A program made the translations under genes and the position numbers. Below the pieces are notes generated by a model. The model saw nothing but the letters and a program-made list of their open reading frames with translations. It had not been told where the DNA came from and ran no database searches. Below, in pieces: positions 12,201-60,787 of a DNA stretch of 64,000 nucleotides; the stretch's first letter is position 1, and each line of letters begins with the position of its first letter. Source of the stretch: Antedon mediterranea (taxonomy: Eukaryota; Animalia; Echinodermata); assembly GCF_964355755.1 (NCBI RefSeq), contig NC_092675.1:801812-865811 (forward strand), given 5' to 3'.

Positions 12201-15200
12201 TTAGATTTGAACAAAGGTAGATTAGGAAGAGATTTTAATGAAATACTTAATAAATTCCATAGTTTTGGACCATTATAAAAAATCGATTTTCTTCTTAAAT
12301 GAAATGTATGCTTTTCAGATAAAATATTTGTTTTAGCAAATCTTGTATTGTAATTGTGAATATCAGGTTGTTGTTTAGGAAATAAAGAAATAATATGATT
12401 TGGTAAAGAGTGATTTTTTAGACGATACATAAAAATATAAGTTTGTAATTTGTGTAAATCAAATACATTAAGTATATTAAATTTATTAAATAAGTTTTTG
12501 GTGTGAGCTATTCTGGTTGACCCTGCACAAATCTTGATAACCTTTTACATGACTATATAAAATCTGGCAATACAAATATGCATTTTACATTTAAAACGAC
12601 ACACTAAAAATGTAAAAATAATTCTTTATAATTAATAATATAATATTTACTTGAACAACCAGGAGTAAGAGGATCAGGTGTCCATCCAATTCCTTCCTGA
12701 CAAAAATATTCGATAAATGATGACGGAGGATCATACACAAATTTAAAGTCGTTCTCTTGACATGCAATGTTACATCCAAAACCAGCACCAAGAGGGCCAA
12801 ATGTAAAGGTTGAACAGCTCTTGTAACCATTAACAGGATCTTCTAAACTCCACTCAGCACATTGTACAGACACTAGAAATTATTAAATATCATAAATGAA
12901 TTACACAGTACAGTACTAGGAGAATAATCGAACCCTAAAAGCTTCCCATCATGCATTGGAGTGATTTTCAATTATGGTTTGTATGTGTATGGGATGCGTA
13001 TAGCTAGTGTAAAAATTGTTCACTTCTTTTATACAACATACATATCAGATATAGACATTGCTAATTATGTTTATAATTAAAAAACTTGCACTGATGAAGG
13101 GCTAGTGTTGCCCGAAAGCTCTGCTAATTTTTCTGGCTGTTTTACATTATCGTTTTGATTTGGCCTTGGCTTATTTTATTTTGTATCCCCATTGAGATCC
13201 AGCCACTGATAACCACATTGTCATTTTTTCAGTAATTTTTGAATTTAATTTTTTTTAAACATGCATCCTTACCATTGACAAACACAACAAACTCACAGGT
13301 CACAATATTGTCAGCAAAATCTGCTGCAGTAACTGTAACAGTCTGGTATGAGCCTAACTTCACCACTGTCCCATTGACAGGTTCATAAGTGACGTATCGC
13401 ACTGCGTCATTGTCTGATACAAGTATCGATGGCCAGAACATTGGAGTGGTGATAATAGGAATTTGATTTTCATCACTTACGGGCGATTCAATAACAATCA
13501 AGTCATGACATTCAAGTAATGGTGGCTCCTTGTCTATAAAAAAATGATTATTCAAATCAAATCACAGTTATTACAGTCTTACAATATAAATAATCAATAA
13601 TACAAAAGTATTTTATTAATGTCACTAACATTTAAAACACATATACTTTAAAGATGTATTGTCCCTCAAAAACATCACTTTGAATAGGCCATTTTGCAGT
13701 TTCACTTCCATAAGAAAAACAACGGGGGAAAAAAATTATTTCACCTATAAAAAGACAAAATAAACAGTTAAATTACCCAAAAACTCATTGTCTTCCAGAC
13801 AATTTGAAAATTTTTTGCTTTAAATTACATTTTTCTCAGGTAAATAAATTTTTTCCAGACCCAATTTTTTTGTGAGAGTGAATAACTATTATGTGACATT
13901 AAAATAACATATTAAAAAAAAAAAAAAAATATTTGTTTAGGGGGACAATATATCTTTAAGTGTGCCAAGAAGGGTCAAAAGAGGTTGGAAGACCACTGTC
14001 ACCACAAGGCGTGCTACACCAACACAGCTTAATATAAATATTCATTAATAAAACAGGAATAGCTTTAAAAGGGATCTATTAATTTTTCAACATATAATTG
14101 CTAAAATATTAAAACACTGAATATAAAGAGATTAATTTATTCAATGAACATTATATATATTTCATTGAAGGTAAACAAAAAATGAAAAAAATTCTGTAAA
14201 TGTTTTTGTATTCTTTTCTGTTACTTGACTGTCATAAAAGGAGTAATGAAAATATACTATTTAGTAATTAATTTGTAAATTGCTTTATATTTGTGGACTG
14301 TTTGAAATAATATATTATATTACATATTTTCACAGCAAAATATACACTATATTGATATGGCAACTGTACTAGACTACAAAAACACTTATAGAAGATGCAT
14401 TAAAAGATAATTACAAGCTATGATAAATTGATAGATCAATTTAGACAAATTGCTTTAGAAGTACTTTAATTATATCATCATTGTTACTTTATTTAAAGAC
14501 TATCTCAAAAATTAAATGCTTTAAAAGTTTCATTAATTCAAGAGGATAATTTACTTTTCACAAAACATATTATTGCAAAGATTTTGATTAGTAATAGGCT
14601 AAAACGTTATTACGTCATTGAGGACTATAAAACACTTTAACATTCAACAACATTTAGTTGAGTTATTGAGTTCATATTTGAAGAAGAAGAAGAAGAATAC
14701 TATAAAGTATGACAGCTACAGTAAATCTCCTCTACAGTATTATTGGGTCTCTAGGCTTATCCACTAACGGTTTTGCAATTTTCATTCTGCTACGCTTGAA
14801 AAACCGGTTTAACTCTCCAAACATTTTAATTCTGAATCAATGCATTATTGATTGTATGGCATCATTATTTTCGATTTGTCAGTTCGTGGATGTAAGTCTA
14901 GGAGATTCGTTGTGGAAGTCTAAAATTAAGGCTTGGCTCTACTGTTGTTTGTGGTTCAACCATTACATCTTTTGGTCGTGCATTTTTGCCTCAACAGCTA
15001 ATCTTGCAGTCCTCACAATGGATCGCTACTGTTCGGTGATATACCCGTTGAAATATAGCGCAAAAAAGAATAATAAATGGATCAAGGTAGCTTTGATGTT
15101 ATTTCCGTGGATCTGTGGCCCGTTAGCGGTAAGTTACTGGATCATGGTGCACAGAGTTGGTGACAGAGAGTGCATAGTAGAGTGGTCAAATATTAACGCT

Positions 15201-18200
15201 CAGAGAGCTTCAGGAGTATTTACTTTTCTGTACATGGAAATTGCCCCAGTTACTTTGATGGCATTTGTATACTACAAAATTTTTCAGTCACTAAAAAGTC
15301 GAGTCGGAGAAAGTAGTGCTATTGGGAACGCAAACAGTGCAGCCAGGAGACTCAATGTCATCAAGACAATGGCACTTGTAAGCATCATATATGCAATTTG
15401 CTGGACACCAAATCAAATAGTATTCTTTTACTATCTGTTGGGTGGAGACTTGGATCTTGATGGAATTATGTATTACGGTACAATAGCTCTTTCTTTGTTG
15501 AACAGTGTTGTGAATCCTATCATCTACACTTTCAAGTATAAAGATTTCCAAGAAGGTTTAAGAAAGACTTTGTCATGCCTTTTCAATCGTAGTTAAGGAA
15601 CTTTCAACAATTGAACAAAATTCAACAATAAGGACCGTTCGATTTGCATTTCCTCGACTGATAACCTAGGCGATTTGCGCACGAAATGTCCACTTAAATT
15701 TAAACATTCAAATTATGTGTGGATGAGTACCACCTCTAATACAATTTAATTAAATCCATAGTAAATTTATGTGAATGAGAACACAACAATAAAGTATTAA
15801 AATACAAAATTATGTGTCCTTATTTTTAAAATAATGTTTATAACTATAATCGGCCACTGTTTTCTATGACAACTGAGTAATCTTTTCATCTGCCATTATA
15901 GACAGATGACTTCTGTTCGGACTCTAATAATGGAGATTCTAAGTGCTGGAGAATGGAGCCGTGTAAATAGTTCATCTGAATTTCTTCTTTAAAGATGTAT
16001 TGTCACCCAAAAAATGACTTTGAATAGGTTATTTTGTAGTTTTAATAAAGTTAAGTTAGAAAAAAATGGGAAAAAACAATGTTTTCACTTAAAAAAATTT
16101 AAATTACAGTTTTTCAGATAAATTTCTTTCGATTGATTTTTATAAAAATAGATAACTATTATGCAACATTAAAATGGCATATTCAACCAAATATTTAGAT
16201 TTTTTTTTTAAGGTGTCAATATATCTTTAATGGTTATCTTAGAATATTTTATAGACCATTTTTTGTGTAAGCGCTCAGAAACATTGTATTAGGTGTTATT
16301 ATAAGATTACCTTTATTATTATTATTAACCATTGAATTATAATTTTTTAGATTAGATTTTTGCTGCCAATGATACAAATTGCAATTTACCAAAATGACGT
16401 GGATTAAGGCAGAAGACACAATTAAGCAATCTACAGAAGTTCCTGCCAATTTTTTACCTTGAGAAGTAATTCTCGGTTGCAACATCACAACCTCCAGATC
16501 ACTGAAATTCCTGACGCCAAGCTTCTCCACAGTAGTTATAAATACAATTATCATCCTATTGGTGCTGTACCTGCTTCTATACTGGAGATGAATTTAACCC
16601 CTTTGTCAGCACAAGCTCGGTGGTCTAGAGGTATGAACGCCTGGCTAGTGATCTGGAGGTTGTGGGTTCCAGTCCCACCCATTAATTTCATCCAAATTGT
16701 TCAACATAATCATAGAGCATATCTGATTTTTCTTGATCAAACAGAATCTATGGGGTTTTTGGGGACTCAAAAAAAAAAGAAGGAAAACAGAAGGAAATGA
16801 AAGAGAGGCAAGCAAACCCTATAAATTGGCATTTCAAATGTAAGCATGCAAAATTCTGTCTGACAAAGCACCATTCTCATTTTTATTATATTATATTATT
16901 TTGCATCACAATATCGTATAGTGGATAGACGGTTACTTCTTACACTTTGCATTGTGTTCATCTACCTCAAAATTAAACATAACTTATATATAGATAGTAC
17001 TGATATACATTTTTACAATAAACAACAGTAGCATAATATGATAAAAGTATACAAATAATGTTTATGAGGTGAACAATTAATTGTTATATTTAACGAGGTA
17101 GAGTCACATTGTTTTATAACACACCTAGTTTATTAAAGTAAACTTTTATTTAATCAATCTGCTGCTAAGACTTGCATTTCGCCTTTCTCATTATTAGAAC
17201 TATGAGATACTTTTTTATATTGAAACGAAATCCTCATTGAGCCTGCAAAATAGTATGCAATGTAAATGTAAACTTTCTCAGTTTTCAGTTCAAATGTGTG
17301 TTATGACCCACAGTAGCCATGACAGTGCATTGCCAATAAGAAGACAAATTCCGAATCTTTTCAAATAGTGTTTTTTTATCATGTATGTGTATGTTTATGT
17401 ATGTTGAAGGATGAAACTGTCAGTCAGGTCAGTCACTAATTTTGGTTTGTCAATTTTTAAAATAACATCTGAAGGATGTGTTTCATTGAAAGGTATTGAT
17501 TTAATATATTTATTTCAACCACATCCAACAGTGAAAAATTGCCAATTACAGGATGCCTTAAAACTCTTAAGATATAAATATAGATATTAAATAAATAAAA
17601 TGTTAACTTTTAGTTAAACCAGTTGACAAGTACTTAGTTGAAACGTAGCAAGTAAGTACTTGTCAACTGGTTTAACTAAAAGTTAACATTTATTTATTTA
17701 ATATCCATTGAAACCAGATGAAATTTTTTGAGAAAGTATAAATATAGAATTAAAAGAACATAAAAATACAAAACATGAAACATAAAAAATGGCAAACTTA
17801 AATCGATTTAAGAACTTTAGACTTAAATTGGACAAAGTGTAAAAAAAATATCGATAGTCTTATCTTAATATCGATAGTCTTATCTAAATATCGAAAGTCT
17901 TATCTAAATATCGATAGTCTTATCTAAATATCGATAGTCTTATCTAAATATCGATAGTCTTATCTTAATATCGATAGTCTTATCTTAATATTGAAAGTTT
18001 TATCTAAATATCGATAGTCTTATCTAAATATCGATAGTCTTATCTTAATATCGATAGTCTTATCTGTATCAACAATAAGAACACTTTCAAACATAAATTT
18101 TAAAAACATCTACTTAGTAAACTTGAAGAACAACAAAGTCATGCTTAGATCCTGAGCAAAATATTTTCAATCACTTTAGTTTGTTTATTTCTATTTCATA

Positions 18201-21200
18201 CTTCTTCGTTTTCTTTCTTAGTTTTGTGCTTTTTTAAATTCTTTTTTAAAAATATTATTTCATCATCTATTCATCTTCATATGTTTCTCTTTTGATGTTT
18301 TATCATTAGACTGTTACTTTATATATTGACCTCTGTTTTAAAAAATATGTAGGCCCTACAGGTATGATGTATGGATTTGAAAAAACAAGAGTAATATAAT
18401 AATCTTGCATATACAAGCAATATTAATTAATTACTTTCATAGAAAAAACAAAATAAAAAAATATATATCTATATAGTATACCAGGCCACTGTTACAAGAA
18501 ATGACACTAACAAAGTTGAAACGTATGTTGGACTGAAAATACTTTTAAGTGTAGATACAAGTCTGAGTTTTTATTTTTCATTTATATCTATATAAAGCGA
18601 TTTTAATAGGTTTAAAATATGGATACCTCTAAAACCTTTTACAATAACAAAAGATTTACTGTCTGACTGAATGTCATATTTAATTGAATGTATATTTCGA
18701 GGGTGGTTTTTAAAAGTGTATTGAAAAGAAACAATTATACAGCCTAATGTTGTTCAACATTATACATTACTTGATGATTGATTTCTGTAAACGCTTTTAC
18801 AGTAATCTTAAACTGAATTAAATGAATATAGCATTAAGTACCTTACAGGATATTAAAGCACAGACTTAATGATAATACATAATTGAGTAAAGCCTAAACT
18901 AAAACAGCCAATACACAATGAAAGTTTAGCTTTCTTTCATATATCTGCCACAGCTTAGTAAAGACATAATCAGCAGAGTTAGAAGATAGATTTCATAGTG
19001 GAAATACAACTGAAGTAAATATATGGCATCAACTAGTACTTTACTATACAGCATATTTGGTTCTTTAGGATTGTTCACTAATGGTTTCGCAATATTCATT
19101 CTCCTACGTTTGCAGAATCGATTTAACTCACCAAATCTTTTAATTTTTAATCAATGTGTGGTTGATTTCTTGACATCTTTCTTCTCAATAATTCAGTTTG
19201 TTGATAAATTTAATAATCCGTTGCCAGAGTCACCAGTGTTGGCGGCCATCGTTTGTAGTAAGTACTTCTTCTGGTCTTGCATTTTTACTTCAACTGGCAA
19301 TCTGGTTGTTCTAACAATTGATCGCTATTGTGCTGTAATACATTCTTTAAAATACAATCATGTCAAAAACTACAAGTGGGTCAAATGTGCTGCTCTAGTC
19401 ACACCCTGGATTTGTGGCTTTACTTTTATTCTTTACTGGGTTGCAATCCATAGAGTCGTAGATGGAGTTTGCTTCCAGAAGTGGCCAAGCGTCCAGTTTC
19501 AGAAATTGTTTGGATTTTTGAATTTCTTCTACATAGAGCTGGCTCCACTTGCTATTATGCTATTTGTATATGTTAGAATCTTTAATTCTCTCAAAACACG
19601 TGTCGGAGAAAATAGTACAACCAGAAATGAACACGGAAACACTGCCAGAAGAATGAATATTATTAAAACCATGTTGATCGTCGGCGTCATATACATGATC
19701 TGTTGGACACCAAATCAGATAGCGTTTTTGAATTTTACTTTCGGTGGTCAATTTGATTTCAATGGTATTTTCTATTACGTAGTAGTGGTACTTTCTCTAT
19801 TTAACAGCTGTGTAAATCCTATCATTTATACTTTCAAATATAAAGATTTTCAAGAAGGACTGAAGAAGACTTTAGTATGCCTCTTGCCAAGAGATACAAC
19901 TTAAGACCCAACTGCAGTTCTACAAGTTATAAACGTTTCAGTCAGACATTCATTTGTAAAATCTAAAAACAATTAGTCTTATGTTTACGATGTGATAGGA
20001 CAGAATTTGAAAGGTGTTGGACATTAAAAACTTTAATTTATTAATGTTTAATAGCAAGTCTGGTATTCTGGTCCATTTTAGCCCCTGTTCAACCTTCCCT
20101 TCCTTAAGAAATTCAAGAATATACCTTTCAATAAAAGATCAACTACAGTAACTAATGCTAATAAATTGCATAGCATCTTGATTTAAAATCTATTGGCAGG
20201 TACTGTAGGTTAGTTTTAAACTTGTTTTCAATAGATCACACAATATATATTTTCATAATAGCAACTGCAGAAAGTCAATGCTTATAACCATCTTCACTGT
20301 AACCTATATCAGGGCTCCTAAGTCACATAGATTCAGCATATTGCATTATACTAGTAGGCCTATACAACGACTTGTATATACATTTGATAATATTTGTATA
20401 AAAATTGTATTCAATGTTATTCTCATAAGATACATCATTATGTAATTAAAAAAATGAGAGTTATTTTAAAAGAGTCAAAATGTATTTCAAGAGTAGACCA
20501 ACAAAAAAAAAGTAATGAATAAATAAACAAGGCCAACAGCCATTAAGTCGCGTGCTACAATGCATAGTGATACCGGACCGACAGACAGACCGACAGAAAG
20601 ACCGACAGACAGACAGACCGACCGACCGACCGACATAGTGAACTATACTGACCAAAATTACTGAACATGTTTAAAAATGTTGAAATGTTTGAAAACATTT
20701 ATATTTTTTTAATTTACACGTGCGTAGCCTGTCACTTTTGACGTGCTCGTATAACGTAATTTCGAGTTGAAAAGTAAGTCAAGAAAACAGAAATCGGGCA
20801 AAAAGAGTGCGCAATAACATTTAACGCGCAGTGCGCGCGCAAAAATATGCGCACTCATGGCAATTTTGTAAACGCTTAAAATTGCCTGAAACGTACTCTT
20901 ATTTCATTGAAATTTTGAAAATTTTAAGCGCGCGTACGCATGCGTTACATGTGCTACGCACGTAATTGTATTGCCATATGATGATTTATGCCCTGAAATT
21001 TATGAGTACCAAATTTTATTTAATTGTGATTCATGGTTGTGAAGATATGATTACAAACGTGATTTCGTTAAATCGTGCGTAGACCGCGTAATTTTTTATT
21101 GCGCACCGTGAAAACATAACCACATTGATTCCTGGCCATAAGGAATATACTGTGAAAAATTGACCTAGCTAGATTAAACTGATATCAAGATAAGGTCAGA

Positions 21201-24200
21201 AAGCGATAAAACGCATAGTGATACCGGACCGACAGACCGACAGACAGACAGACAGACCGACAGACCGACAGACCGACCAACCGACCGACATAGTGAACTA
21301 TAGAGTCGCTTCCACGTGACTAAAAATAAAGAAAAAGTGTTAAATGTTTTATTTGAAGTTTTTTCACTCATTGGTGTAATTATTGGTCCACAAAAAAAAA
21401 ACAACAGATAATTACTAATGGATGATATATCATATCTACCAAATTTAAGGCAATGTAGAATAGTTTGAAAATATAATTTGAATTTGGATAACGTCATAGT
21501 ATAAAGTTGGCAAGTTTGACAATATATATACAAAAACTTGTATACTGTAGGTAAATGTATATAGGTATACCAATTGTTCAATTCTTCTACCGCCATCTTC
21601 ATTATTCGATAAATTAATTGCAAATATCATAGGCCTACCTGAGTAGATTCTTTTTATTTAATTTGAAAATTGTGGGTCAAATTCATAAAAGTACCAGGGT
21701 CTGGCATGAGTGGTGGAATGGTTTTATAAAGATTTTTTTAATAGCGAAAGTTTTATGGTGTTTGTCAGTATGTAATGATGCATGAAAACAGTATCCATGA
21801 AGACGGTTATGTAGGAGAATAGTTACAAATTGAATTATATATAGATACTGATTTTCTTAAGAACATACTTTGAAAATACTTTAAAAGCTTTTCAAGGGAA
21901 TCTTTAATAACCTAATATTGTTCACATATTTTAAATAAAAATGTGTCCTTGAATAAGTAACAAGATCAGCAAATTCTAAAGTCTTAATCATTTGAAAGCC
22001 ATTAACAAAGTATCTATAATTGTATGCAATTTCCTATATCTATTGACAAATGAATATATATCGATTACAGTATGATTGAGAAGACCAGGTCCATGAGAAG
22101 ACACTTCATGAGACTATAGGGTGCTCTGTGATTTGTTGACAGATTACTATTTAATTATTAATTATTTAGGCATTATATTGCCAAGGATAAACTTATACAA
22201 AGAAAATTTATTTGGAAATTGAAACCAATTGAATTAAAAAAACAATCTTTGTCAGTGGAGTAGTTTTTTGTCGTGAAAAAAAAATCCTTACCATGAGATC
22301 GGTAACCAAGCATCTAAACTGCTTGAAAGCTAAAACTTCACTTCAGATAAGTTATGTAGATTGAATTGAATTACCGAGATCATAGTAATTTTCTACTTTG
22401 AAAACATTTTAAAAGCTTTTCAAGGAAATTTTTAATAACCATATTGATTACATTTTATAACGGAAATTGTATCCTTGAGTCAATTTAGACACATAATTGG
22501 CATGATGCTTACAAACAAATTGTTTAAGTTTGAGTATAATATATATATAGGCCTACTGAATGTAGAATATAATGAAAATGGATGTAAGATGAAAGTTTGA
22601 TTCATGGTTTAATACACTTACGAATTAAATATATGAAATACGTTGAACCAATAAGCAGCAGAGTTCTGGAGTGGATGTACCAGCATACTCTATATGAGGC
22701 AAAAAAAAAAAGAAGTTGCCTGCGACACGTAAAACAGTAGCTTCTTGACTAAGAGAATATTTTTTTTCTGGAAGCCTAAGCCACACTTGAATAAAGTGAC
22801 ATCAGAATTAAACAAGAGACAATAGAAAAACATGGCAGCAATAAATGCAGTACTTTACAGCGTGTTTGGATGTCTGGGATTGTTCACAAATGGTTTCGCA
22901 ATATTCATTCTTCTACGTTTACAGAATCGATTCAACTCGCCAATTATTTTGATTTTAAATCACTGTGTGGTAGACTTCTTGACATCCTTCTTCTCAATAA
23001 TTCAGTTTGTTGATATATTTACCACTCCGCTACCAGAATCACCAGCATTGGCGATCATTGTTTGTAGTAAGTACTTCTTCTGGTCCTGCATTTTTACATC
23101 ATCCGGCAATCTTCTTGTTATAACAATTGATCGCTACTGTTCTGTAATATATCCTTTAAAATACAATAAAGTTAAAAACTACAAGACGGTCAAAGGTGCT
23201 GCTCTAGTCATACCCTGGATTTGTGGCTTTACTTTTATGCTTTACTGGCTTTTAATCCATAAAATCGAGGATGGAGTTTGCATTCAGAAGTGGCCAAGTG
23301 TCCAGTACCAGAAATTGTTTGGTTTTCTAAATTTCCTCTACATCGAACTGATTCCACTTATTATTATGCTATTCGTGTACATAAGAATCTTCATCTCTCT
23401 TAAGACACGTGTCGGAGAGACCAGTACCGCAAGAAATGAAGCAAACACTGCCAGAAGAATGAACATTATAAAAACAATGATGATTGCTAGCATTACATAC
23501 ATGGTTTGTTGGACTCCAGGCCAAACATCATATTTATATTTTACTTTTGGAGGTTACCTAGATTTTGATGGAGTTCCATACTACATTGTGGTGGTATTTA
23601 CGCTATTAAACAGCTGTGTAAATCCTATAATATACACCTTCAAGTATAAGGATTTTCAAAAGGGTTTGAAAGAAACTTTTTCATTCCTACAACAAAGAAC
23701 AGAGAACTAAAAAGGTTAGGAAGGTAGTAACACAACATTTTTTTGTAAATTTGTAATTAAATGTGATGTGGCCATATTATATGGACATGATGATGTCGTA
23801 TCACTACCACAGTTAAGCATATCACTACCATATTTAGGCACATCACACTTTTTTGTCAAACTAGTTTGATAGTATACATACAGAGCTTATTAGCCGTGTT
23901 CTGATCATGCGCACAATTACTATTCCCTCGACAGAGGTGCGTATCGATTAATTTAATTAATTTATTTTTAAAAATTTAAAACATATTTATACAGGATAAA
24001 AACCTATAAGGTATTGTATATGTAGTACCTGTTTTACATATGGTCCTGTTTATAAAAAATTAAAGGTTAACAACAATCTTTAAAACTTGCTAAAACAATA
24101 AAATAACAATACTAACATATATGTACATTTACGATAAAAGGATTAAAAATGCTAAATATTCAGATACCATGTCCTGTCACAGTTTTACAATTCTTATTAT

Positions 24201-27200: not shown

Positions 27201-30200
27201 AGCTTTTCCTGAAAATCAATAGCAAAATTCTATTTTGCCAAGTAAAAAGAATCATTAAAAAATATAAATATCAATACAGGGTTGATCTTCTTCACAGTCA
27301 TGGCCGCAGTATCCGGGTGGACAATAGCATAGATATGTGTTGTTGTCTTGTTCCATGCAAATACCATCATGAAGACATGGATTAGGTTCACAAGAAGAGG
27401 TACCTGTCAATCAATAAGTCACTAAATCAATAATTAACTAAGCATCAACAAAACAGAACTAATAAACAAGCTGAAATGAAGACTTTTTGGTATGAAATTG
27501 TCTTGAGACATTGGCCGAAGATTACATTTATTTATATTTTTTCTACTGCCTTTTTGAATTTTTGTATTGCTATATATGAGTCTGTATAATAAAGATTTTT
27601 TGAATTGAATTGAATCAACAAACATGGAAAGAACTAATAACAAGAATAGGGCAAGAATTGAAGCATGGAAATAACATGAAGTGGTAAATCCAGTTTGGCT
27701 ATTATTTTTCTAAGATAGATTATTCAAATATGGAAATAGGTTTGGTGGTACGAAATGTACTGAATATTACCTTCTGTTGTGCTGTAGAGGGCTGTAGGTC
27801 CGAATGTAGGGGTCATTCCATCAATAATACACTGAATAGGGTCCTCTTGTTGTGGTCTGAAGCCCGGTTCAAGGCACTCATACCAAACAATGGTACCAAC
27901 ATCATAGTTGGATGTTGATTGATATTGGATGGCATTATTAGGTGTTCCAGGGTCTTCACATTCTGTTGCTGAAACGTTAAAAAAATACCATTTTTTAAAT
28001 TGCTTTTGTTGTTACTGAAGTTGATGTGCTCTTAAAGTATTAAGATGAAAATTTCGACCATCAAGAAATAATAAATATGAAGTATGCTTACGTTGACAAA
28101 TACAATCTGTTCCATTCCACCAGCCAAAGCCCCATCCCCAGCCCCATCCCCAGCCATAACCCCATCCAATGCAACCAATACCGGCTCCATCTCCTCCACC
28201 TCCACCACCCCCTCCTCCTCCACCACCTCCATCACCTTGTTCTCCAGTACAGGCACAAATTTCACCTTGACCTCCTCCACCACCTCCTCCTCCGCCTCCA
28301 CCTTCACCCCAGCCTGTGCCTGGAGGACATTCTACAAGAAAATCAATAATAGTGATCAATATATTATACATTTATTTAAAAATCTCTTGCTCTCTTTCTA
28401 GAGCTTTGTTATTGTATACCTTCACAATAGCCAGGGCTCCCACTCCATATCCCATTTTCAAGGCAGTACCTCACCAGAGGTCCATGGTACCCATATGTTT
28501 CATCACATTTGGTATATGCTTCACTTCCAAACGTTGTAAGGTTATTCTGGTATGTTACACTGCCATACTCAGGTGCCATCATTGCTCCACAATCAACAAC
28601 TGTAAGAGGAAAAAAAAATTTGTATCGGAAAACTTCCCTTAATTAACATAATAATGAATAAAACGTGTATAAAAAGTAGGTATACTTAATTTCCCTTTAT
28701 TTATTTTATCCCTTTTGACCCCAAGATTTATTAAACTGTTACAGAAATACATGGAAATGATTGGCTGTATCCTACTTACTTGTGCATTTTGGTTCAAAAT
28801 CTGACCAATCATAATGATTGTTACCAGTGTCCTCACAAATACGATTACTTGGTCCTGTAAGCGTATAACCTTCATGGCAGTTGTAGCTAACTTGTGAAAG
28901 ACAAGAGTAAGACTCCAAAATAGGCTCATAGAAGCCATCATCCACTTGTGATGGTGGAAAACATTCAATACCTATAAACAAGATTGGCATTATGGTACAT
29001 ATTTTAAAATGCAAAAATTCTGTGTACTACATTACTTAAACACGCATATTTATCTTGTAATTGTATGTTTCTGTCCAAGAATTTTCCATTTTATTTCATA
29101 TCCACAAAAATTAAAATCAATCGTGTGCAATATAATAAACTAAATTCATATTAAAGGCATGAAAATGGAAATATAAGTTCGACCTTTGGTTACTTTTTTT
29201 GTGTTACCCTGAATTCATTCTTTGTAATTTATATGTTGTGTTATTTTGTGAATTCGAATAAAGAAATAAAATAACAATTAAAAAAAAAAAATATATTTTA
29301 GTAAAAATATGTGATTCTCCAACAACTCATACAGAACCTGTACATAAATAATACCTATACAGCTTGGAAATTCAGAATCAAAGCCATCACTGCCACATGA
29401 CAAGACAGCATCATCACCAACAAGCTCATAGCATGGATCACAACGGAACTCTATAGTATCTCCCATAGGGATGGCGATGTCAGTAACAACCTCAACTCCA
29501 TCGAGTACAATAGTGCCTATATAGTTGTATGTTTTATCAGGAAGAATAACTACGCCATTCTCAATCTTTACTGGAACTGGGCAAAGGTTAGCTACATTCA
29601 AAATAAAACGTTATTTTTTAACCGTTAGCAATTCTATATAAATAGTATGATGCTTATCTATTTCATGCAACAATACTAAAAAAAGAAGTAAAGTATGATT
29701 AAAGTTGGTTATGATAATGATCCATGGTTAAAGTCACTTACAAACACACGTTTTGCCAATAACATAGCTGTCTTCATTTGAGTAGCCTGACTCGCCTGGT
29801 GGTAGATAGTAACCATTGGTTCCATTCATAACATAGAGATCATATCCTGGTTCACATGAACAGTTATAGCTTGCTGGATAATTATGACAGAGTTGATTAC
29901 AGTCATTAAGGTTTTCATCATCGCATTCATTGATATCTAGAAGAAAAAAAGGAAAATCCGATTTCTCAATAAAGAACTTTTACGAACAACTTCAATCAAG
30001 ACAAGACTTTTTGTAGGCTTTGGAAGTTATTAAAAAAAAGCACACGGTGCCATCGTCACCACTGTTGGGTTCACTCTAGATGCTTAGAAATTGAATCGTC
30101 AGACCATCACTTACCAGTTAATCATTAATCCAACCAATTAAGTTATTACATGTGAAATGTGTCAGAAGACACAAGAAACATTTTGGCCAGTTAGGTTCGC

Positions 30201-44785: not shown

Positions 44786-45607
44786 ATTATCCGTTAGGCC
44801 ACAAAGTAGTACTGTACATGACTAAACAGCTGATAATAGTCTATTTATACGTGTATTACGTAATTCATCATAAAAATCCCATTAACCTTGTTGGATTTAA
44901 AATTAAAATTGTAATGATAATAGTATAATCATGCAAGTACGAAGAAATAAATACTGGCAAATAAATTTTAATTTAAAAATCATGATAAGTTTTTTTGTTT
45001 CGTTTTCTTTCTGTTTTTATACTTGTACTATTATTGTTGCTCTTTTGGCGCTCCATAGAAACAAAAACATTGAGCATGGGGGAGCTCGAGGAGTTACATT
45101 GTCATTACAGTATACAAAGAAACACATCTGTAAAATCATCAATTTAAAGGATTTATTTATTTGTTATTATGTGTTTCTCCTTCTGAAAGTACTTATAAGT
45201 CCTAATTTTAAAGTGTGGTGTTCAGGATAAAGTTAGTCAACAAATTTGGAGTCAAAATACAAGAAAGGCAGGTGCGTAAGAAAAACATCCTCTGAAGCAA
45301 CACAATGGAGTAAATATATACCAACAAACAACCCGTCAAGTTTGTTTGTTGTAAAGAAAAAATATACATTTACTCAACGGGCGAAAATAATGTGAGTTTA
45401 TCTATGTTTTGCGGTAGTATTAAATTATATTTATGGTAATAAATGAAACCTACTGTGTTTAAAATTATGTATGGATAAACAAGTATTGTTTTTAAGCTGT
45501 AGTATATCTTAGTATTTGTAATCTTAGGTGTTGGGTCTTAGCTTTCGTGATCTTAGGTCTTAGGGGGTCTGAGCTTTCGTGGTCTGAGCTTTCGTGACAC
45601 CCCAAAA

Positions 45608-46988
45608 TTGCCCCATTATGGAATAAGAGGCGTGGTTCTTGATTGGTACCGAAGCTACCTTAGAGAAAGACAACAATTTGTACAAATTGGGAAGTGTCAG
45701 TCTGTAACCATAATAATAAAACAAGGCGTTCCACAAGGGTCAATCCTTGGACCCCTGCTGTTTTTGATTTTCATAAATGACATGTTTTCTGTAAGTAATG
45801 TCGTTGATTTAATAATGTTTGCAGATGATACGAATATGTTTTTACAACACAATGATATCGTCACTGCCTTTACAATAATGACAAATGAACTAAATAAAAT
45901 TGAGAAATGGTGTAAAACTAATAGATTAACTATTAATACAACCAAGACTACGTATATGTTATTTAGTGGAAAGAATACCAACATTGACACATCCCAATTT
46001 GTACTTTCAATAAATAGAGTTTCAATAGATAGAGTAGGCCTACCATATACTAAATTTCTCGGTGTCGTCATTGATGAGAAACTGAACTTTAGACACCATA
46101 CAAATGCAGTTTCTTGTAAAGCATCCTCAATAATTGGTGCCATGTGTCATATAAAAAAATTAGTATCTACTGAAGTGTTACTTACCATATACAAGACACT
46201 TATATTACCAGTGTTGACATATGGTATTATTGTATGGGGTGCGGGGAACAAAGACAATTTGGATCGCCTTCTATTGCTTCAGAAAAAAGCTCTTAGGATC
46301 ATTTGTAAGGTAGACTTTCATCATCCCTCTTCTCAGCTCTTTGTGAAAACGGGCACATTTAATATATTTGATTTGTATAAAAACAGTGTTTTAAATTTTA
46401 TGTTTAAATACCAAAAAGGACAACTTCCAAAATGTTTTAATTCTTTATTCAGTTTATTTGATAATTATCATACATATAACACTCGAAATAAAGACAATTA
46501 TTGTATAAAATTAAAATCAACTAATATGGGTCAGCAAAGTATAGCATATAGAGGACCTAAGCTATGGAATCAACTTATAAGAAATATAAGAGAGAGTGAA
46601 AATATATCAATATTTAAAAAACTATTACTAAATAAATGCATTAATAGTTATAAAGAAACAATATATCTATGCGAAAACAACATTTGTAAAATATGTCTAA
46701 CTTTAACTTAATTACTTACATTTTCGTATATATTCTGAGACTGATGTATATATATATGTTATATTATAGTACGTTGTATTTTCCTTCATTTATTTACTAC
46801 ATGAAAACATTTTTTGTAATATATTTGTAAATTTATATTTTAAGTTAGGGTGCCACAGATTAAAAGCTTTGCTTGCTTGTGGTTATCCTGTTTTTCACAC
46901 TTTATTGTACTTAATCCTTTATTTATATTTTTAAGAATGTTGTGTGAAAAATAAAAGAATCAATCAATCAATCAAAAAAAAAAAAAAA
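45608..46988 (+). mobile_element. 5'-truncated LINE (CR1/L2-group): RT domain, C-terminus, 3' UTR and tail
   Basis: Open 367-codon frame with GVPQGSILGPLLFLIFIND and FADDT reverse-transcriptase motifs. 3' stem-loop near 46848-46889, then AATAAA, (aatc)n and poly(A). Confidence 0.92.
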
Positions 46989-47280: not shown

Positions 47281-48515
47281 TAATTTAATTTTTTTTTTCA
47301 ACCTGTATTCGATCTCGTAAATGTTATGTTTGCCGCCCTCAATTAAAAAAATGAATTTTATATTTTCATCGCAGGTGTACGAAACGGTTTGGGTATGTCG
47401 TGCGTTGTTATTTAATGGTTGTGCAGGTGTAGTGTCAATTCGCGGTCAACACGCCACACTGTTAAATTTGGATTTTGTTCATCAACGTTGCTAGCTACAT
47501 TGGTAGCGAAAATGTCCCATTCATGCAAAATATTGTATTGTAAAATGTTATGAATAAACGTTTATGGTCGCATTGTCCCCAGAATAAATGAAAATATTAT
47601 TTTAAACAGATAGTTTGTCAACAATGGTTTTTGGATGGGGTTAATGGACAGTGAAATAAGAACAATTTGCAAAGATGCCGATTTCTAGACCAATTTTGAA
47701 GCTTTGACTAATTCCGCCGCCGGGCTAGGCCTTAGGCATATACGAAGTCGAGTTTTTAAAGTAGAAAACCCCACCTACAATTTTGAAGTCGCGTCTGGAT
47801 AGTTGACATTTTAACATTTAATATCATAATTATCATAGGTGATTATGTATAGTAATAAGTATAAGTAAAAGTGCAATTCTGGGCTCTATTTTCATTATTA
47901 GCTCTGCCTCAACCATGGTGGGCTAGTACTGGAGATTTAATATTTAATTTCATATTTCAATGAATAGGTGCACTTTCCGGGGAGACTAAATAAGTATTTA
48001 TCTTAGACAAACGCAAGTTATTAAAATCACTGATATGGCTTAAAACTATTTTTTTCTTTTGCATTACGGATGGAGTAACCGATATTGAACATATTGAAAT
48101 ACGTTAATAATAATAATAATAATAAGATTTATATAGCGCACATATCCACAAAAAGGCTCAAGGCGCTTGTGAAAAACCATGAAAAAACATATAAAAATAC
48201 ATTACCCCCATTCACGTTATGAATAAAAGTTTACGGTATGGCCGCACCATTCCAGAATTTATATGTTTTAAACAGATAGTTTGTCTCAGTTCTTGAATGG
48301 GGTTAATGTAATTTGTTTCTCTCCACAAACAAGAGTAACATGGCACTGGCATTAGTCTAAAGATAAATAATGGCACCATGTTTGAATGAACTGGAAATCG
48401 AATCAAAGTTTTCAAATTATTCGACCAGTTTTCTTACTAACAATAGAAACATGATAAATGTTGCTCTTTCACTTCCACCAAGATAATTCATAATTTTTGT
48501 TACTTTACTTTGTAG

Positions 48516-48617: not shown

Positions 48618-48817
48618 ATGAATTGTAATGAAAATAAAACTAAATTTATTTAACGAAATTAGATAAACATAAAAGATTAATATAGCCCTATCTTAAATAA
48701 TAAAATAATTTACAGAATTATAATTGTGAAAAAAAATACTAGTTCATATATTGAATTAAATACAACGTAAAAAATGTTTAGAAACAAAAATACATTTGAA
48801 ATATTCAATAAATGTGT

Positions 48818-51277
48818 TTATGCTTTTTGTGATGTAATAACAACTTTCTCTTCTTTCTGTTCACCAGTCTTCCGTTGAGTATCTGTGCCATTCAACTGAT
48901 CTAGTTCAGGTATCTCGTCCTCTCCAGAGTGATTTATGTCCTCATGTCTGTCTTCGTATCGCCTGTTTTGCTGGTAATAACCTCGACGTTGATCGTCCTG
49001 CTGACGACTGAAACCATTACCTTGATGATCCCGTCGATAATGTCCTCTTCCTCTTCCACCGAATCGTTTGTTATAGTATTCATAATATCCAACTACATCT
49101 TGTGATTGTTCGTTATAACGACGATCTCGTTCGGTGTTTCTTCCTCCCCTGTGGCTGCTACCACCATAACGTCGAGTGGCCCAACTATCTCTTGGCTGTG
49201 CTGCTCCGTTCAAGTGTTGCTGCTGATGAATCCGCTCGCTTAGATCACTGATGTTGGCTTTCTGTACGTTACAGTCGTCGAAGAGGAGCTGGTGACTATT
49301 GGTGAGATGATCGAGTCTGGAATTTAGGTAAGGTATCCACTGTCCAAATTGAGTCTCCAGCACGGTTAGACGTTCGCTCATTGTGAGTAGGTCTACACCT
49401 ATTTGTTCGTTTGTAAGAATTGGAGCCCAGCATACATCTAAGTTTTAAACATAAATATATATATGCGCGGTCATAAAACAAATATATTAATTTACATTCA
49501 ATAAAAAACGAAAATTCAAAACAGTTTATAAATATTTAAAAAATAGTTAGGCCTAATATAGTTGTATAATTGTAACATATCACGTGGAACATTAATTGTT
49601 AACCGGAATATGAAGAACTAACCCCCATCGGCTGTCGAGTACTGCACGTATTGGGTTGTTGGGTCACTGCTTACAGGGATAGCGGCTGTTTGTTGTTGAA
49701 AATCGTGTGTACTTCTTTCGATAGCGTTATTTGTTACTGAATTTTCCGATTCGTCGGGAACTTTCATATGCTCAGACTCAAAACGGTTGGTCTTCTCTGG
49801 TTCTAGTGCAGCAGTAGGTATAGCCTTAAGACGTGTATCATCCTCTACCAAATCATTTGCTATCTGGTGACAAACTGTCGTCTTCTGAAGAGTTTTAGTT
49901 TGATCCATGGATTCCTCAACTTTTGTTTGTGAATAAGTAGCTGATGTTTGGGTGCTTGTTTGAACATCTTGGTTGACTTTATTATTGGTTACTTCCGCAA
50001 CCTCTACTAAAGGGCAACTCTGGGAAGACTTTTCAGTACTATCGATCTCATTCACCACCAATGCCTGGTTATTCACGGCAGACCAGTCAAAAACAGGTTG
50101 GTCATTGACTCTGGATAAGTCCGGCTAAAATAAAAACAAAATCGTTTAAAAAAACAAATTATTGTTAACGAGTAGCGACTTTAATCTGAAAAATAGGTTG
50201 GGGTGTACTAGAACCGCTAATAGAGGTTAAAACCCAGTTTGTATATTGCAAAGACCAGTCAAGCTACATAAACGACTTCCAAAGCTAACAAACCTTTTCA
50301 TCAATCTTTACATCATTTTCGTCATCGGTTTGATGATATCCTTGGCTACTGTCACCTAACGACCTCTGTGCGCCGACGACGGTCACTGCATCTGCACCAA
50401 CGATCACGTATTCATCTTCCGTGTTTGATGCAGAGATGTGTGGCTCAGGACCTGCAGTGGTTGAATTTTCGTCGTATTGCATTCCATCCAGTTTCTCCTC
50501 TTCGTCACAATGCTTACTCAAGACATTCCCATCTTGGTCGTCCTTTCCGTCGTCATCGTCGGTGTCAATTTCTTCATCAGGATCTGTTGCATCATTGTTG
50601 TTGTTGCAATTCTGCCGGAGAAGAAATAATTAGACTTGTAGGCGTGGTATAAAGGAGAAAGATGGTAGGCAATTACATAAAAAAATAGATAAAGAATATA
50701 GAATATTAAGTTAGCTAGTTAGGCACGTCCCCAATGCAATCAAGGATAGCCTAGGCCTAGCCTATAGTAGTATGGTAGGCTAATGATAATTTACCGAGTT
50801 TAACTGAAGTTGCAGATAAGGAGTGTTGAGTGAGTTGTCCTTCTTCCTGGGTCCAATTTCTGTAAAATCATCGTCTAATCCGAAAGAAAATGATTTACTT
50901 GTCCCAATGATCCTTCCATTCTTGCGGGAGTCTGCGTAAACGAACTTAAATTGACCCACTTCTTGAGATGGCATCATGGTATCTTCTGGAACGGAAGAGA
51001 GATCAAATTTGACTTGAAAAAGGACAGACCATCTGTAACGAACACATTCCTTCGGTATAGGTTGAAGACATAAGCAATCTTGAAGAATTTTGCCAGCCGC
51101 GGTGGCTGGTAAAATCCCGACAACATTCCGATCCAATAGGCGAGAACGTTGGACACGACATTGGACTATGACTGAGTTTCGGATGCTATACGTGCGTCTC
51201 ACATGTTCAAATTCTACTTCCTGTCTTCTTTTTCGTTCAAGGCAGGTTGCCTTTTTATCATGTTGACTTACAACCAT
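48818..51277 (-). CDS. SKICH-domain protein (CALCOCO/TAX1BP1-like N-terminus) with acidic disordered middle and RGG/Tyr-rich tail, about 640 aa, 4 exons
   Basis: Exons 50795-51277, 50294-50611, 49623-50124 and 48818-49437 splice in frame (1923 nt). The N-terminus VEFEHVRRTY...VVGILP...GQFKFVY...GRIIGTSKSFSF matches the SKICH pattern by eye. Confidence 0.75.
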
Positions 51278-51713: not shown

Positions 51714-51790
51714 TGTGCGCATGCCCAGTTCACAAATTCCCATTTAGACTCTCTTTCCATACGTTCTTTGGGGTGTGCGCATGCCCAGTC
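51714..51790. promoter_or_regulatory. Paired NRF1/P3A2-like motifs in a CpG-richer promoter region
   Basis: tgtgcgcatgcccagt occurs twice, 60 bp apart, upstream of the SKICH gene. A - strand donor-like site (aag|gtaaat) near 51641 suggests a 5' UTR exon. Confidence 0.5.
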
Positions 51791-51899
51791 CGAGAAAAAG
51801 AAAACTAGTTATAAGCTACCGCGCGTTATAGTTACCTTGAATATTATAATTGCCTAAAGGCGCGGCGCAAAAAAAAAGAAGAAAATCTTCGACATCAGT

Positions 51900-53080
51900 T
51901 ATGTAACTCTAAAGGTTCACTAAATAAGTTAGAAAATTTACAATACCAAATGGCTAGAATTATTTTGAAGGCACCAAGAAACGTCGCGAAAGCGGCATTG
52001 ATTGGTGACCTAGGATGGGAGACACTCTACACCATCCAAAATAAATTTAGGATGTCCTATTTTAACAGAATTAAAAATATGGACGACCAAAGGTGGCAAA
52101 AACTACTATGTAGATCTATAATGGATGTAGAAGATAAGGTGAAATGGAAGTGGATTAACCATATCAAAGATTTATTATGTAAATTTGATTTAGGAAATAA
52201 GTTTAATTTAAATCCGGAAAGTCAATGGTTCAAGAGTTTTACACATGCCAACTCTCTAGAAAATATCAAGGAATGGTTAGAAGGTGCAAAAACAAAGTCA
52301 ACCCTCTCCGAATATTTGAAATATAAACATGAACCTAAAGCAGAGACATACATGTTTGATATGGTGAATTTTGATTCCATTAGTTTAAAGTTTAAAGCGA
52401 GGTCTAACTCTCTTGATTTAGAAGGTAGAAAAAATACATGGTCAGAAAATGAGACTGGTTTTTGCAAGCTATGCAACAATCAGTTAATTGAAACTACAGA
52501 CCATTTTCTACTTGAATGTTCAAACCTTAAAAATGTAAGAGAAACACATTTTAACTTACTAAAAATGGATTTATTATATTGTGGTTATGATACATTCTGG
52601 GAAAATTTTAGAAGTGGTACAATCGAATACCAACATCATATTTTACTTGATGACCTTTATTTAGAATTTCCATTTGAGAGAATCGGTGAAATTGTAGACT
52701 ATCACTGTAAACAATACTTAACTGCTGCATGGAGACATAGAAAGACTACACTTAATATATAATATATAAATATTTACCGCCCACCATATTATCTACTAAC
52801 ATTATTTTACCATTTATCTAATTCAATAATATATTATATATATATTTTTTTTTTTTTTTTTTTTTTTTTTCCTTCAAAATTATATAATGTAACCTAAATC
52901 TAAATAAAATAAATAAATAATACAGTACTAAAAATAAGACTAAATAGTATAATAAAAATTGTATCACATTTAATTAAATTACAAATAACTATTAATATTA
53001 AATATAATAAGAACAAATAATCATATAAAAGTTGCATTTATTTTAATAATAACAGTATAATAAATCAATTAGCAGTTATA

Positions 53081-56400: not shown

Positions 56401-56730
56401 TATATACAGAATGGATTCTTAAATCAAATGAAAATGACTTGAGATTATGTTCTGCTGGATCCGAAAAGGTTAAAGTTCAAAGACTGGTCATCTCAGTTAT
56501 TATGCCTGTCGTTATTTAAATGATATAATATTCAGAAATATTTTTGGTTTTTACAATTTCAGATTTGGTTAGGTTTACATCAGTGATATCATAGTGTTGA
56601 CCAAACTAAGTAGACAAAACAAAATAATATTACCTGACCTGAAAAATTTAATTAATTAATAAAACTTAATTATTTAAATTGACACCTGCTTAGTCACAAA
56701 GTTACATAACATTATAATAAAAGTACAGGA

Positions 56731-57382
56731 CATGGTAATGTTAGTATACAACATGGTAATGTTAGTATACAACATGGTAATGTTAGTATACAACATGGTA
56801 ATGTTAGTATACAACATGGTAATGTTAGCATACAACATGGTAATGTTAGTATACAACATGGTAATGTTAGTATACAACATGGTAATGTTAGTATACAACA
56901 TGGTAATGTTAGTATACAACATGGTAATGTTAGTATACAACATGGTAATGTTAGTATACAACATGGTAATGTTAGTATACAACATGGTAATGTTAGTATA
57001 CAACATGGTAATGTTAGCATACAACATGGTAATGTTAGTATACAACATGGTAATGTTAGTATACAACATGGTAATGTTAGTATACAACATGGTAATGTTA
57101 GTATACAACATGGTAATGTTAGTATACAACATGGTAATGTTAGCATACAACATGGTAATGTTAGCATACAACATGGTAATGTTAGCATACAACATGGTAA
57201 TGTTAGTATACAACATGGTAATGTTAGTATACAACATGGTAATGTTAGCATACAACATGGTAATGTTAGCATACAACATGGTAATGTTAGTATACAACAT
57301 GGTAATGTTAGTATACAACATGGTAATGTTAGTATACAACATGGTAATGTTAGTATACAACATGGTAATGTTAGTATACAAC
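56731..57382. repeat. 21-bp minisatellite, about 31 copies
   Basis: Unit catggtaatgttag(t/c)atacaa with a single variable position. Confidence 0.97.
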
Positions 57383-60096: not shown

Positions 60097-60787
60097 TGTA
60101 ATAGTATAGGTAGGCAAGATTGTAATGTTGTAATAGTATAGGTAGGCAAGATTGTAATGTTGTAATAGTATAGGTAGGCAAGATTGTAATGTTGTAATAG
60201 TATAGGTAGGCAAGATTGTAATGTTGTAATAGTATAGGTAGGCAAGATTGTAATGTTGTAATAGTATAGGTAGGCAAGATTGTAATGTTGTAATAGTATA
60301 GGTAGGCAAGATTGTAATGTTGTAATAGTATACAGTAGGTAGGCAAGATTGTAATGTTGTAATAGTATAGGTAGGCAAGATTGTAATGTTGTAATAGTAT
60401 ACAGTAGGTAGGCAAGATTGTAATGTTGTAATAGTATAGGTAGGCAAGATTGTAATGTTGTAATAGTATAGGTAGGCAAGATTGTAATGTTGTAATAGTA
60501 TAGGTAGGCAAGATTGTAATGTTGTAATAGTATACAGTAGGTAGGCAAGATTGTAATGTTGTAATAGTATAGGTAGGCAAGATTGTAATGTTGTAATAGT
60601 ATACAGTAGGTAGGCAAGATTGTAATGTTGTAATAGTATAGGTAGGCAAGATTGTAATGTTGTAATAGTATAGGTAGGCAAGATTGTAATGTTGTAATAG
60701 TATAGGTAGGCAAGATTGTAATGTTGTAATAGTATAGGTAGGCAAGATTGTAATGTTGTAATAGTATACTGTAGGTAGGCAAGATTG
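60097..60787. repeat. 32-bp minisatellite (with 37-bp variants), about 21 copies
   Basis: Unit taatagtataggtaggcaagattgtaatgttg; some units carry a 5-bp insertion. Confidence 0.97.

What the first reader, a model, noticed from the sequence alone, without database searches (positions are those of the whole stretch)
48818..51277. SKICH protein with multiple LIR-like motifs and an RGG/Tyr tail instead of ubiquitin-binding zinc fingers
Seen: a divergent SKICH domain is followed at once by DDDFTEI, and later EDEYVIV, FDWSAV and CWAPI (aromatic-x-x-hydrophobic; the first two have acidic flanks). A short heptad-like segment (MSERLTVLETQ...ISDLSERI) and an R/G/Y/Q-rich tail (YGGSSHRGGR, RFGGRGRGHY) follow, with no C-terminal zinc finger. 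Known: the SKICH proteins NDP52, TAX1BP1 and CALCOCO1 are autophagy receptors with LIRs, long coiled coils and C-terminal zinc fingers; RGG/Tyr regions bind RNA and promote condensates. Inference: a possibly undescribed autophagy receptor for RNA granules or germ-plasm-like condensates.
Basis: partly seen in the sequence, partly recalled or inferred. Interest (0 to 1): 0.75.

Follow-up and report, generated by a model that had tools for sequence, protein, structure and literature searches.

The report
Feather-star SKICH protein, Arg/Tyr tail
A feather-star gene encodes a protein that starts like the known autophagy receptors (a divergent SKICH domain and two acidic docking-type motifs) but ends in a predicted coiled coil and an arginine/tyrosine-rich tail instead of zinc fingers, so it likely delivers some non-ubiquitin cargo for degradation, although no binding has been tested.

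Summary
The gene is real: four exons on the minus strand give 640 aa, identical to RefSeq XP_071952714.1 of the crinoid Antedon mediterranea (uncharacterized). The only relative found is in the crinoid Anneissia japonica, annotated there as two halves. SKICH is supported: Pfam 23.6 bits in Anneissia (cut-off 23.4), 18.5-19.9 here, and ESM Atlas TM 0.55-0.66 to SKICH proteins. My own AlphaFold model of the domain failed. Of the four LIR-like motifs, EDEYVIV is kept (EDEYVFV). DDDFTEI loses its aromatic (EDDLTEL) but still fits the FIP200-Claw consensus. FDWSAV and CWAPI lose the LIR core. There is no zinc finger in either species. The tail is Arg/Tyr-rich rather than RGG: one RGG here, none in Anneissia, but 13 of 13 aromatics are kept. 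By eye, the SKICH surfaces that bind FIP200 and NAP1 look remodelled. Best reading: a crinoid, ubiquitin-independent autophagy adaptor (0.45); RNA granules as cargo is a guess (0.17). No spliced RNA, binding or oligomer evidence was obtained.

The parts
50795..51277 (-). Exon 1 coding part (aa 1-161): start codon, SKICH domain, post-SKICH motifs
   Evidence: model equals RefSeq XP_071952714.1
50882..51226 (-). Divergent SKICH domain, aa 18-132
   Evidence: Pfam PF17751 18.5-19.9 bits here, 23.6 in the ortholog; ESM Atlas; 80 of 115 residues identical to the ortholog
50855..50875 (-). DDDFTEI, aa 135-141: LIR-like here, EDDLTEL in the ortholog; both fit the FIP200-Claw (FIR) consensus
   Evidence: consensus from PMC7946963 passages
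50801..50821 (-).
   Evidence: Atlas structural alignments to CALCOCO1-like models run to aa 154-157
50294..50611 (-). Exon 2 (aa 162-267): acidic linker (net charge -29 over aa 133-270)
50399..50419 (-). EDEYVIV, aa 226-232: best LIR/FIR candidate, EDEYVFV in the ortholog
   Evidence: 6 of 7 identical, the only such 7-residue window in aa 162-421
49623..50124 (-). Exon 3 (aa 268-435): Ser/Thr/Gln-rich linker, 19% identical over aa 285-421
50074..50100 (-). QPVFDWSAV, aa 276-284: F-x-W kept (QPTFNWADS) but the LIR core is not
49624..49656 (-). TQYVQYSTADG, start of a conserved block aa 423-438 (14 of 16 identical) that spans intron 3; role unknown
48818..49437 (-). Exon 4 (aa 435-640 and stop)
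49211..49411 (-). Predicted long helix / coiled coil, aa 444-510, with heptad pattern and RLTVLE (RhxxhE) at aa 457-462
   Evidence: 44 of 52 identical over aa 454-505
48950..49198 (-). Arg/Tyr-rich low-complexity tail, aa 515-597 (18 R, 10 Y, 12 G of 83)
   Evidence: pLDDT mostly under 50
48645..48650 (-). AATAAA, candidate polyadenylation signal about 170 nt after the stop

Best explanation
This is a four-exon crinoid gene for a 640-residue protein with an N-terminal SKICH domain and no zinc finger, which likely works as a ubiquitin-independent autophagy adaptor derived from a CALCOCO/TAX1BP1-like ancestor. SHOWN: the parts, their order, and their conservation in a second crinoid. INFERRED mechanism: (1) the acidic motifs EDEYVIV and DDDFTEI, in a disordered linker, would dock on ATG8/GABARAP and/or the FIP200 Claw domain; (2) the SKICH domain probably does not recruit the FIP200 coiled coil or NAP1 as NDP52 and TAX1BP1 do, and would bind another partner, as argued for CALCOCO1; (3) the predicted helix at aa 444-510 would oligomerise the protein (dimer or trimer), making weak motifs multivalent; (4) the C-terminal half (block 423-438, helix, Arg/Tyr tail) would choose the cargo in place of ubiquitin-binding zinc fingers, most plausibly through multivalent Arg/Tyr contacts with a condensate. 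Which cargo, and whether RNA is involved, is not shown.
For: SKICH at the N-terminus, as in the CALCOCO family and unlike the 5-phosphatases where it is C-terminal (the latter recalled); the Atlas's top 8 of 10 structure rows are CALCOCO-type or unnamed SKICH proteins (TM 0.59-0.66), with 5-phosphatases at rows 9-10 (0.55-0.56). Acidic motifs follow the domain where the family's LIR/FIR lies (PMC7396842, PMC8363153 passages). Both motifs fit the published FIR consensus in both species, and they are the only two matches after SKICH in the ortholog's N-half. EDEYVIV is 6 of 7 identical against 26% linker background (P 0.0016 as a pre-named site; about 0.016 by hand against the 39% of aa 162-225). 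Zinc-finger loss recurs in the family (PMC4599966 passage), and CALCOCO1 is a receptor that binds no ubiquitin (PMC7396842 passage). Tail aromatics 13 of 13 kept against 51 of 83 overall, P 0.0008.
Against: Only two species, so conservation tests are weak. Over all 243 linker windows, 0.39 windows of 6/7 identity are expected by chance. Two of four proposed LIRs are lost and a third loses its aromatic. The family's LVV motif and the long coiled coil directly after it are absent: about 280 poorly conserved residues intervene. By-eye register on paper-given TAX1BP1 residues puts non-aromatic residues at Y63/Y64/F66/W68 and Thr at A114. SKICH also occurs in non-receptor proteins (bioRxiv 10.1101/264085 passage). 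Acidic Tyr motifs fit other short-motif classes too (recalled). Arg conservation in the tail is not above the tail's average (14 of 18, P 0.09), aromatics tend to be slow-changing anyway (4 of 8 kept in the linkers), and one assembled allele changes tail Tyr588.
Confidence: 0.45

Rival explanations
1. It is a signalling or membrane scaffold unrelated to autophagy: SKICH localises it or binds an unknown partner, the acidic tyrosine motif is a kinase, SH2 or sorting site, and the conserved block plus helix binds the main partner.
For: SKICH in SKIP/PIPP serves membrane localisation, and NAP1-binding residues are not kept outside NDP52/TAX1BP1. The receptor-type SKICH surfaces look replaced here. 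The strongest conservation is at aa 423-438 and 454-505 (88% and 85%), not at most of the LIR-like motifs.
Against: Two acid-flanked motifs fit the FIR consensus in both species and lie in the family's usual position. The closest structural look-alikes are CALCOCO-type.
Confidence: 0.27
2. It is mainly a condensate or RNP-building protein: the helix and Arg/Tyr tail drive self-assembly or RNA binding, and the SKICH and LIR-like motifs are leftovers or only tag the protein for its own turnover.
For: Tail composition and the kept aromatics match the Tyr/Arg grammar of phase separation (abstract of bioRxiv 10.1101/2024.02.15.580391).
Against: No RNA-binding domain is detected and the RGG is not conserved. 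The SKICH is 70% identical between the two species, so it is not a leftover. The tail's net charge is only +8 over 92 aa.
Confidence: 0.18
3. The full-length fusion is not the main product: transcripts end in or read into intron 2, giving a short SKICH-plus-motif protein, and the helix/tail half is made separately.
For: The ortholog is annotated as two genes split at exactly this intron, its N-half ending by read-through. Intron 2 has the least consensus-like donor by eye (GTTTGT), an in-frame stop and an ATTAAA. No spliced read was seen.
Against: Intron 2 is only 169 nt with a strong acceptor and an in-frame join. All three RefSeq records for this locus, the 640-aa one and two sharing a 540-aa sequence, span it. 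Homology in the ortholog's C-half starts right at the beginning of exon 3.
Confidence: 0.08

Closest known systems
CALCOCO family receptors: TAX1BP1, NDP52/CALCOCO2, CALCOCO1
   Same: N-terminal SKICH, acidic hydrophobic motifs right after it, and a predicted coiled coil. Like CALCOCO1, it lacks a ubiquitin-binding end and seems to lack the FIP200-binding tyrosines (PMC7396842, PMC10945755 passages).
   Different: No LVV motif. About 280 poorly conserved residues lie between SKICH and the helix. The helix is about 67 aa, against a coiled-coil region given as aa 145-513 for CALCOCO1. There is no zinc finger at all, and an Arg/Tyr tail instead. Sequence similarity is too low for phmmer to link them.
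LIR/FIR motifs of optineurin, CCPG1, NAP1 and NDP52
   Same: DFTEI / DLTEL and EYVIV / EYVFV fit acid-hydrophobic-x-x-hydrophobic (PMC7946963 and PMC8363153 passages).
   Different: Binding is untested. The consensus is short: 7 matches after SKICH here against 3.1 expected (P 0.03), and only 2 are kept in the ortholog.
C. elegans SEPA-1 (P-granule autophagy receptor)
   Same: Functional analogy only: a lineage-specific receptor that promotes phase separation of its granule cargo (PMC6971693 passage).
   Different: No homology was found or tested. Its link to germ granules is experimental; here there is none.
FUS-type Arg/Tyr low-complexity regions
   Same: Tyr and Arg rich, aromatics kept while Gln, Gly and His vary.
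   Different: No RGG repeats, no RRM or zinc finger, and only about 83 aa long.
SKIP/INPP5K and PIPP/INPP5J SKICH domains
   Same: Same domain family (Atlas rows 9-10, TM 0.55-0.56).
   Different: No phosphatase domain here.

Membership tests
SKICH domain (PF17751) | Match to the Pfam profile at its cut-off | tested here: met
   The ortholog scores 23.6 against a cut-off of 23.4 over profile 1-103. The window's own domain scores 18.5-19.9, below the cut-off but over 2-103 of 103, and is 70% identical to the ortholog. The full 640-aa protein gives no Pfam hit.
SKICH domain (PF17751) | Ig-like beta-sandwich fold | tested here: inconclusive
   The Atlas's own model aligns to SKICH proteins at TM 0.55-0.66 in 10 of 10 rows, feature score 0.91 (one source, predicted models). 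My AlphaFold model had pLDDT 41; Foldseek ranked NDP52 SKICH first and second but at E 1.7-2.1; VIA-align best Z 2.8.
CALCOCO family (TAX1BP1/NDP52/CALCOCO1) | N-terminal SKICH domain | tested here: met
   aa 18-132
CALCOCO family (TAX1BP1/NDP52/CALCOCO1) | Atypical LIR (LVV) in the linker after SKICH | tested here: not met
   No LVV in either sequence; DFTEI/DLTEL and PYLQL/PYLEL stand there instead
CALCOCO family (TAX1BP1/NDP52/CALCOCO1) | Long central coiled coil directly after the LIR | tested here: not met
   aa 162-421 is acidic or Ser/Thr/Gln-rich and 19-39% identical; the one confident helix is aa 444-510, in a model of exon 4 only; the linker itself was not folded
CALCOCO family (TAX1BP1/NDP52/CALCOCO1) | One or two C-terminal zinc fingers (often lost in the family) | tested here: not met
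   No C-x2-4-C in either species; last Cys at aa 490; both proteins end with a similar VVIxxQK stretch
CALCOCO family (TAX1BP1/NDP52/CALCOCO1) | Descent from the CALCOCO gene (tree placement) | not tested
   No canonical SKICH sequence came back from the searches, so no tree was built
NDP52/TAX1BP1-type SKICH | FIP200 coiled-coil and NAP1 binding surfaces | tested here: inconclusive
   By-eye register from paper-given residues suggests Y63/Y64/F66/W68, F99 and A114 are replaced; no proper alignment was possible
Selective autophagy receptor (functional class) | LIR-dependent ATG8 binding and lysosomal turnover with cargo | not testable with these tools
   No ATG8 sequence was on hand; needs bench work
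Selective autophagy receptor (functional class) | Oligomerisation domain | not tested
RGG-box RNA-binding proteins | Clustered RGG/RG repeats | tested here: not met
   1 RGG and 4 RG here, 0 RGG and 3 RG in the ortholog; one shared RGRG

The most novel reading that the evidence does not exclude
Crinoids rebuilt a TAX1BP1-like receptor into a ubiquitin-free receptor for RNA condensates: a trimeric coiled coil presents Arg/Tyr tails that dissolve into RNP or germ-plasm-like granules, while tandem LIR/FIR motifs recruit FIP200 and ATG8 directly. It would be a SKICH protein that reads its cargo by condensate chemistry rather than by a tag; none was found described in the searches run.
Probability: 0.17. 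Interest if true: 0.75.

Novelty: new variant of a known kind. Interest (0 to 1): 0.48.

Why it matters
How autophagy picks out RNA granules and other condensates without ubiquitin is only partly known; SEPA-1 in C. elegans is the named case in the review passage read. A natural protein that swaps the zinc fingers of a CALCOCO-type layout for an Arg/Tyr tail would be a compact test of whether condensate partitioning plus a LIR is enough to make a receptor, and it can be assayed in ordinary cell lines. It also shows the SKICH domain diverging to the edge of detection while still under constraint, which suggests such genes are missed in invertebrate annotations. Its reach is limited: it was found in two crinoids only, and zinc-finger loss alone is already known in the family.

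Tried and rejected
No whole genome is held for the window, so a canonical TAX1BP1-like gene in the same animal could not be looked for. Homolog searches returned only Antedon records and the two Anneissia halves: 2 of 213 candidates, 2 of 257, 1 of 1456, and 3 of 1.84 billion representatives, of which P0005 is a repeat protein with a 36-residue match and was dropped as chance. One search used a single sequence, not a profile, so distant relatives may be missed. Two metagenome scans found no relative among 199 and 332 pattern matches. PDB sequence searches gave only chance hits or none. AlphaFold on the SKICH with a two-sequence alignment gave pLDDT 41 and no usable fold match. The C-terminal half has no Pfam, Atlas (best 0.76) or Foldseek match. 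Expression: no RNA holder listed; the one run guessed to be RNA gave short low-depth contigs with no splice joint; a control laying on another stretch did not complete, so whether that run is RNA stays open. Complex prediction of the helix was not available, so there is no verdict on the oligomer. Rejected as LIRs: FDWSAV and CWAPI (core lost in the ortholog). Rejected: an FFAT-like motif (none with my recalled pattern); a LINE ORF1-derived coiled coil (considered because of RhxxhE, but no Pfam hit, and PMC13060782 notes many RhxxhE coils are dimers). The scan's own index held nothing on this protein.

Full report
Gene. The region holds four open frames on the minus strand. Of the splice combinations tried, three gave a full-length frame, and the model 51277-50795, 50611-50294, 50124-49623, 49437-48818 gives 640 aa with GT-AG introns of 183, 169 and 185 nt. 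This protein equals RefSeq XP_071952714.1, 'uncharacterized protein' of the crinoid Antedon mediterranea; two further records share a 540-aa sequence that starts at Met101 and lacks most of the SKICH domain. Two runs of unrecorded kind from one sample each carry a single unspliced contig across the gene with no indel in the coding part. Of 10 coding differences seen in the three runs laid, 4 are silent and 6 are not; both in exon 1 are silent, none falls in aa 423-505, and one changes tail Tyr588. No spliced read was seen, so the junctions rest on the sequence and the RefSeq model.

Relatives. Three word-based searches and one full phmmer search returned only Antedon records, two Anneissia japonica proteins and one chance repeat hit. 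The Anneissia proteins, LOC117114390 (296 aa) and LOC117114404 (413 aa), are each listed with a contig of 1,160,598 bases and match aa 1-267 and aa 270-640. The first ends by reading through the position of intron 2. I read them as one gene split in annotation; their DNA was not seen. All conservation statements therefore rest on two species.

SKICH. Pfam PF17751 matches exon 1 at 18.5 bits (E 0.003) and the trimmed domain at 19.9, below the cut-off of 23.4, and the ortholog at 23.6 over the whole profile. The ESM Atlas ranks a SKICH cluster first by features (0.91, 202 of 256 shared, family on 49% of members), and all 10 structure rows are SKICH-bearing clusters at TM 0.55-0.66, CALCOCO1-like first. 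Against this, my AlphaFold model failed (pLDDT 41), Foldseek put NDP52 SKICH on top only at E 1.7, and VIA-align and PDB sequence searches found nothing. The domain is 80 of 115 identical between the species. I take it as a real, very divergent SKICH. Using residue numbers given for TAX1BP1 in PMC10945755 (passages and section 7) and bioRxiv 10.1101/264085 (passages), a by-eye register anchored on WVGI/VVGI and on G97, E98, Q101, I111 and P117 places Cys, Leu, Leu and Ser/Pro at Y63, Y64, F66 and W68, Lys/Gln at F99, and Thr at A114. If that register is right, neither the FIP200 coiled-coil surface nor the NAP1 surface is kept, as the papers report for CALCOCO1. This is inference, not an alignment; the papers' supplementary alignments were not seen and bear on it.

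Motifs. Bare LIR cores are at chance level after the domain (5 against 4.6). Cores with two acids before them are not (2 against 0.13-0.17, P about 0.01, pattern chosen after the fact). In the ortholog EDEYVIV is EDEYVFV, DDDFTEI is EDDLTEL, FDWSAV is FNWADS and CWAPI is CWGVA. EDEYVIV is the only 7-residue window in aa 162-421 with 6 identities; P is 0.0016 for a site named in advance, but 0.39 such windows are expected over the whole linker. Both acidic motifs, in both species, fit the FIP200-Claw consensus of PMC7946963 (passages). So there are two candidate docking motifs, one of them possibly FIR-only.

C-terminal half. The best-kept stretches are aa 423-438 (14 of 16) and aa 454-505 (44 of 52). 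A model of exon 4 gives one helix over aa 444-510 with pLDDT 75-89 in most blocks and low confidence beyond. Hydrophobic residues fall in a heptad pattern with one break, and RLTVLE / RLCALE matches the RhxxhE motif, which PMC13060782 describes as enriched in trimers but also found in dimers (passages). The oligomer could not be modelled. The tail (aa 515-597) has 18 Arg, 10 Tyr and 12 Gly in 83 residues against about 4.5% Arg and 2% Tyr elsewhere; Tyr 10 of 10, Phe 2 of 2, Trp 1 of 1, Arg 14 of 18, Gly 6 of 12 and Gln 1 of 9 are kept. Aromatic conservation exceeds the tail's average (P 0.0008) and Arg does not (P 0.09); aligners anchor on aromatics, so this is suggestive only. The single RGG is not kept. 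No zinc finger exists in either species, and the similar C-termini argue that the true end was found. This half matches nothing in Pfam, the Atlas or the PDB.

Mechanism. The most economical reading is a crinoid adaptor of CALCOCO-like layout that would dock on ATG8 and/or the FIP200 Claw through the acidic motifs, oligomerise through the helix, and choose cargo through its C-terminal half without ubiquitin (0.45). Rivals are a non-autophagic scaffold (0.27), a condensate or RNP protein whose motifs are incidental (0.18), and a split or short product (0.08).

Comparison with what is known. PMC7396842 (passages) defines the family as SKICH, LVV-type LIR, coiled coil and one or two zinc fingers, and shows CALCOCO1 working without ubiquitin binding. 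PMC4599966 (passages) reports repeated zinc-finger losses and a single CALCOCO gene in the leech. This protein meets the first feature and fails the other three, so I do not file it as a member; it works like one at best, and its descent was not tested by a tree. NDP52 is listed among factors that alter retrotransposition (table row of PMC4982230), and SEPA-1 is a granule receptor (PMC6971693 passages), so granule autophagy itself is not new. PMC8363153 and PMC9582228 were read as passages. Searches for SKICH with invertebrate and LIR motif (4 papers), SKICH domain with evolution, TAX1BP1 and echinoderm (43 papers with three of the four terms, 25 listed), SKICH with RNA-binding, granule and autophagy receptor (3), TAX1BP1 with Apostichopus (3), Antedon mediterranea with genome (12 of 57 listed) and SKICH with RGG (3) showed, from listings alone, no paper on this protein or layout; the library lacks most subscription papers.

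Verdict. This is a real, constrained, unannotated architecture, a new variant of a known kind, seen in two crinoids and untested in function. Interest 0.48.

Noticed in passing
window 45557-46711 (+) and 51815-52762 (+): LINE-type reverse-transcriptase fragments on both sides of the gene (RVT_1 E 6.8e-15; zf-RVT E 0.00028, below cut-off). High-depth repeats also lie at about 48000-48270 and 51750-52000.
   Followed up: partly
window about 1200-37000 (-): Many short frames with EGF-like, Sushi, HYR, pentraxin and CUB-like sequence, resembling a large SVEP1-type extracellular protein (name recalled). Sushi and HYR pass Pfam's cut-off, pentraxin falls just below it, and the CUB-like frame tested gave no hit. 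Whether it is one gene was not tested.
   Followed up: partly
window 14706-15596, 19014-19904, 22826-23710 (+): Three intronless rhodopsin-family GPCR frames (7tm_1, E about 1e-30) in tandem on the opposite strand, apparently nested between exons of the large extracellular gene.
   Followed up: partly
window 28012-28371 (-): A frame with poly-Gly runs and a GW repeat ([16 protein letters not shown]) among the exons of the large extracellular gene.
   Followed up: no
window 56730-57382 and 60097-60768: Tandem arrays: 21-base unit, 31 copies, 98% matches, open in several frames; and a 32-base unit, about 20 copies.
   Followed up: no
window 50125-50293 (intron 2, -): Read-through ends after two more residues and the intron holds an ATTAAA; the ortholog's annotation breaks at the same intron. 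A short SKICH-plus-motif isoform is possible.
   Followed up: partly
window 50975-51277 (-): Two RefSeq records start at Met101 and so would lack most of the SKICH domain while keeping both acidic motifs, the helix and the tail.
   Followed up: no
window 49438-50794: The three introns are of nearly equal length (183, 169, 185 nt).
   Followed up: no
window 49604-50050: One low-depth contig of run X1 ends exactly at 49604, next to a possible second donor at 49603; an in-frame stop lies before it. Probably chance.
   Followed up: no
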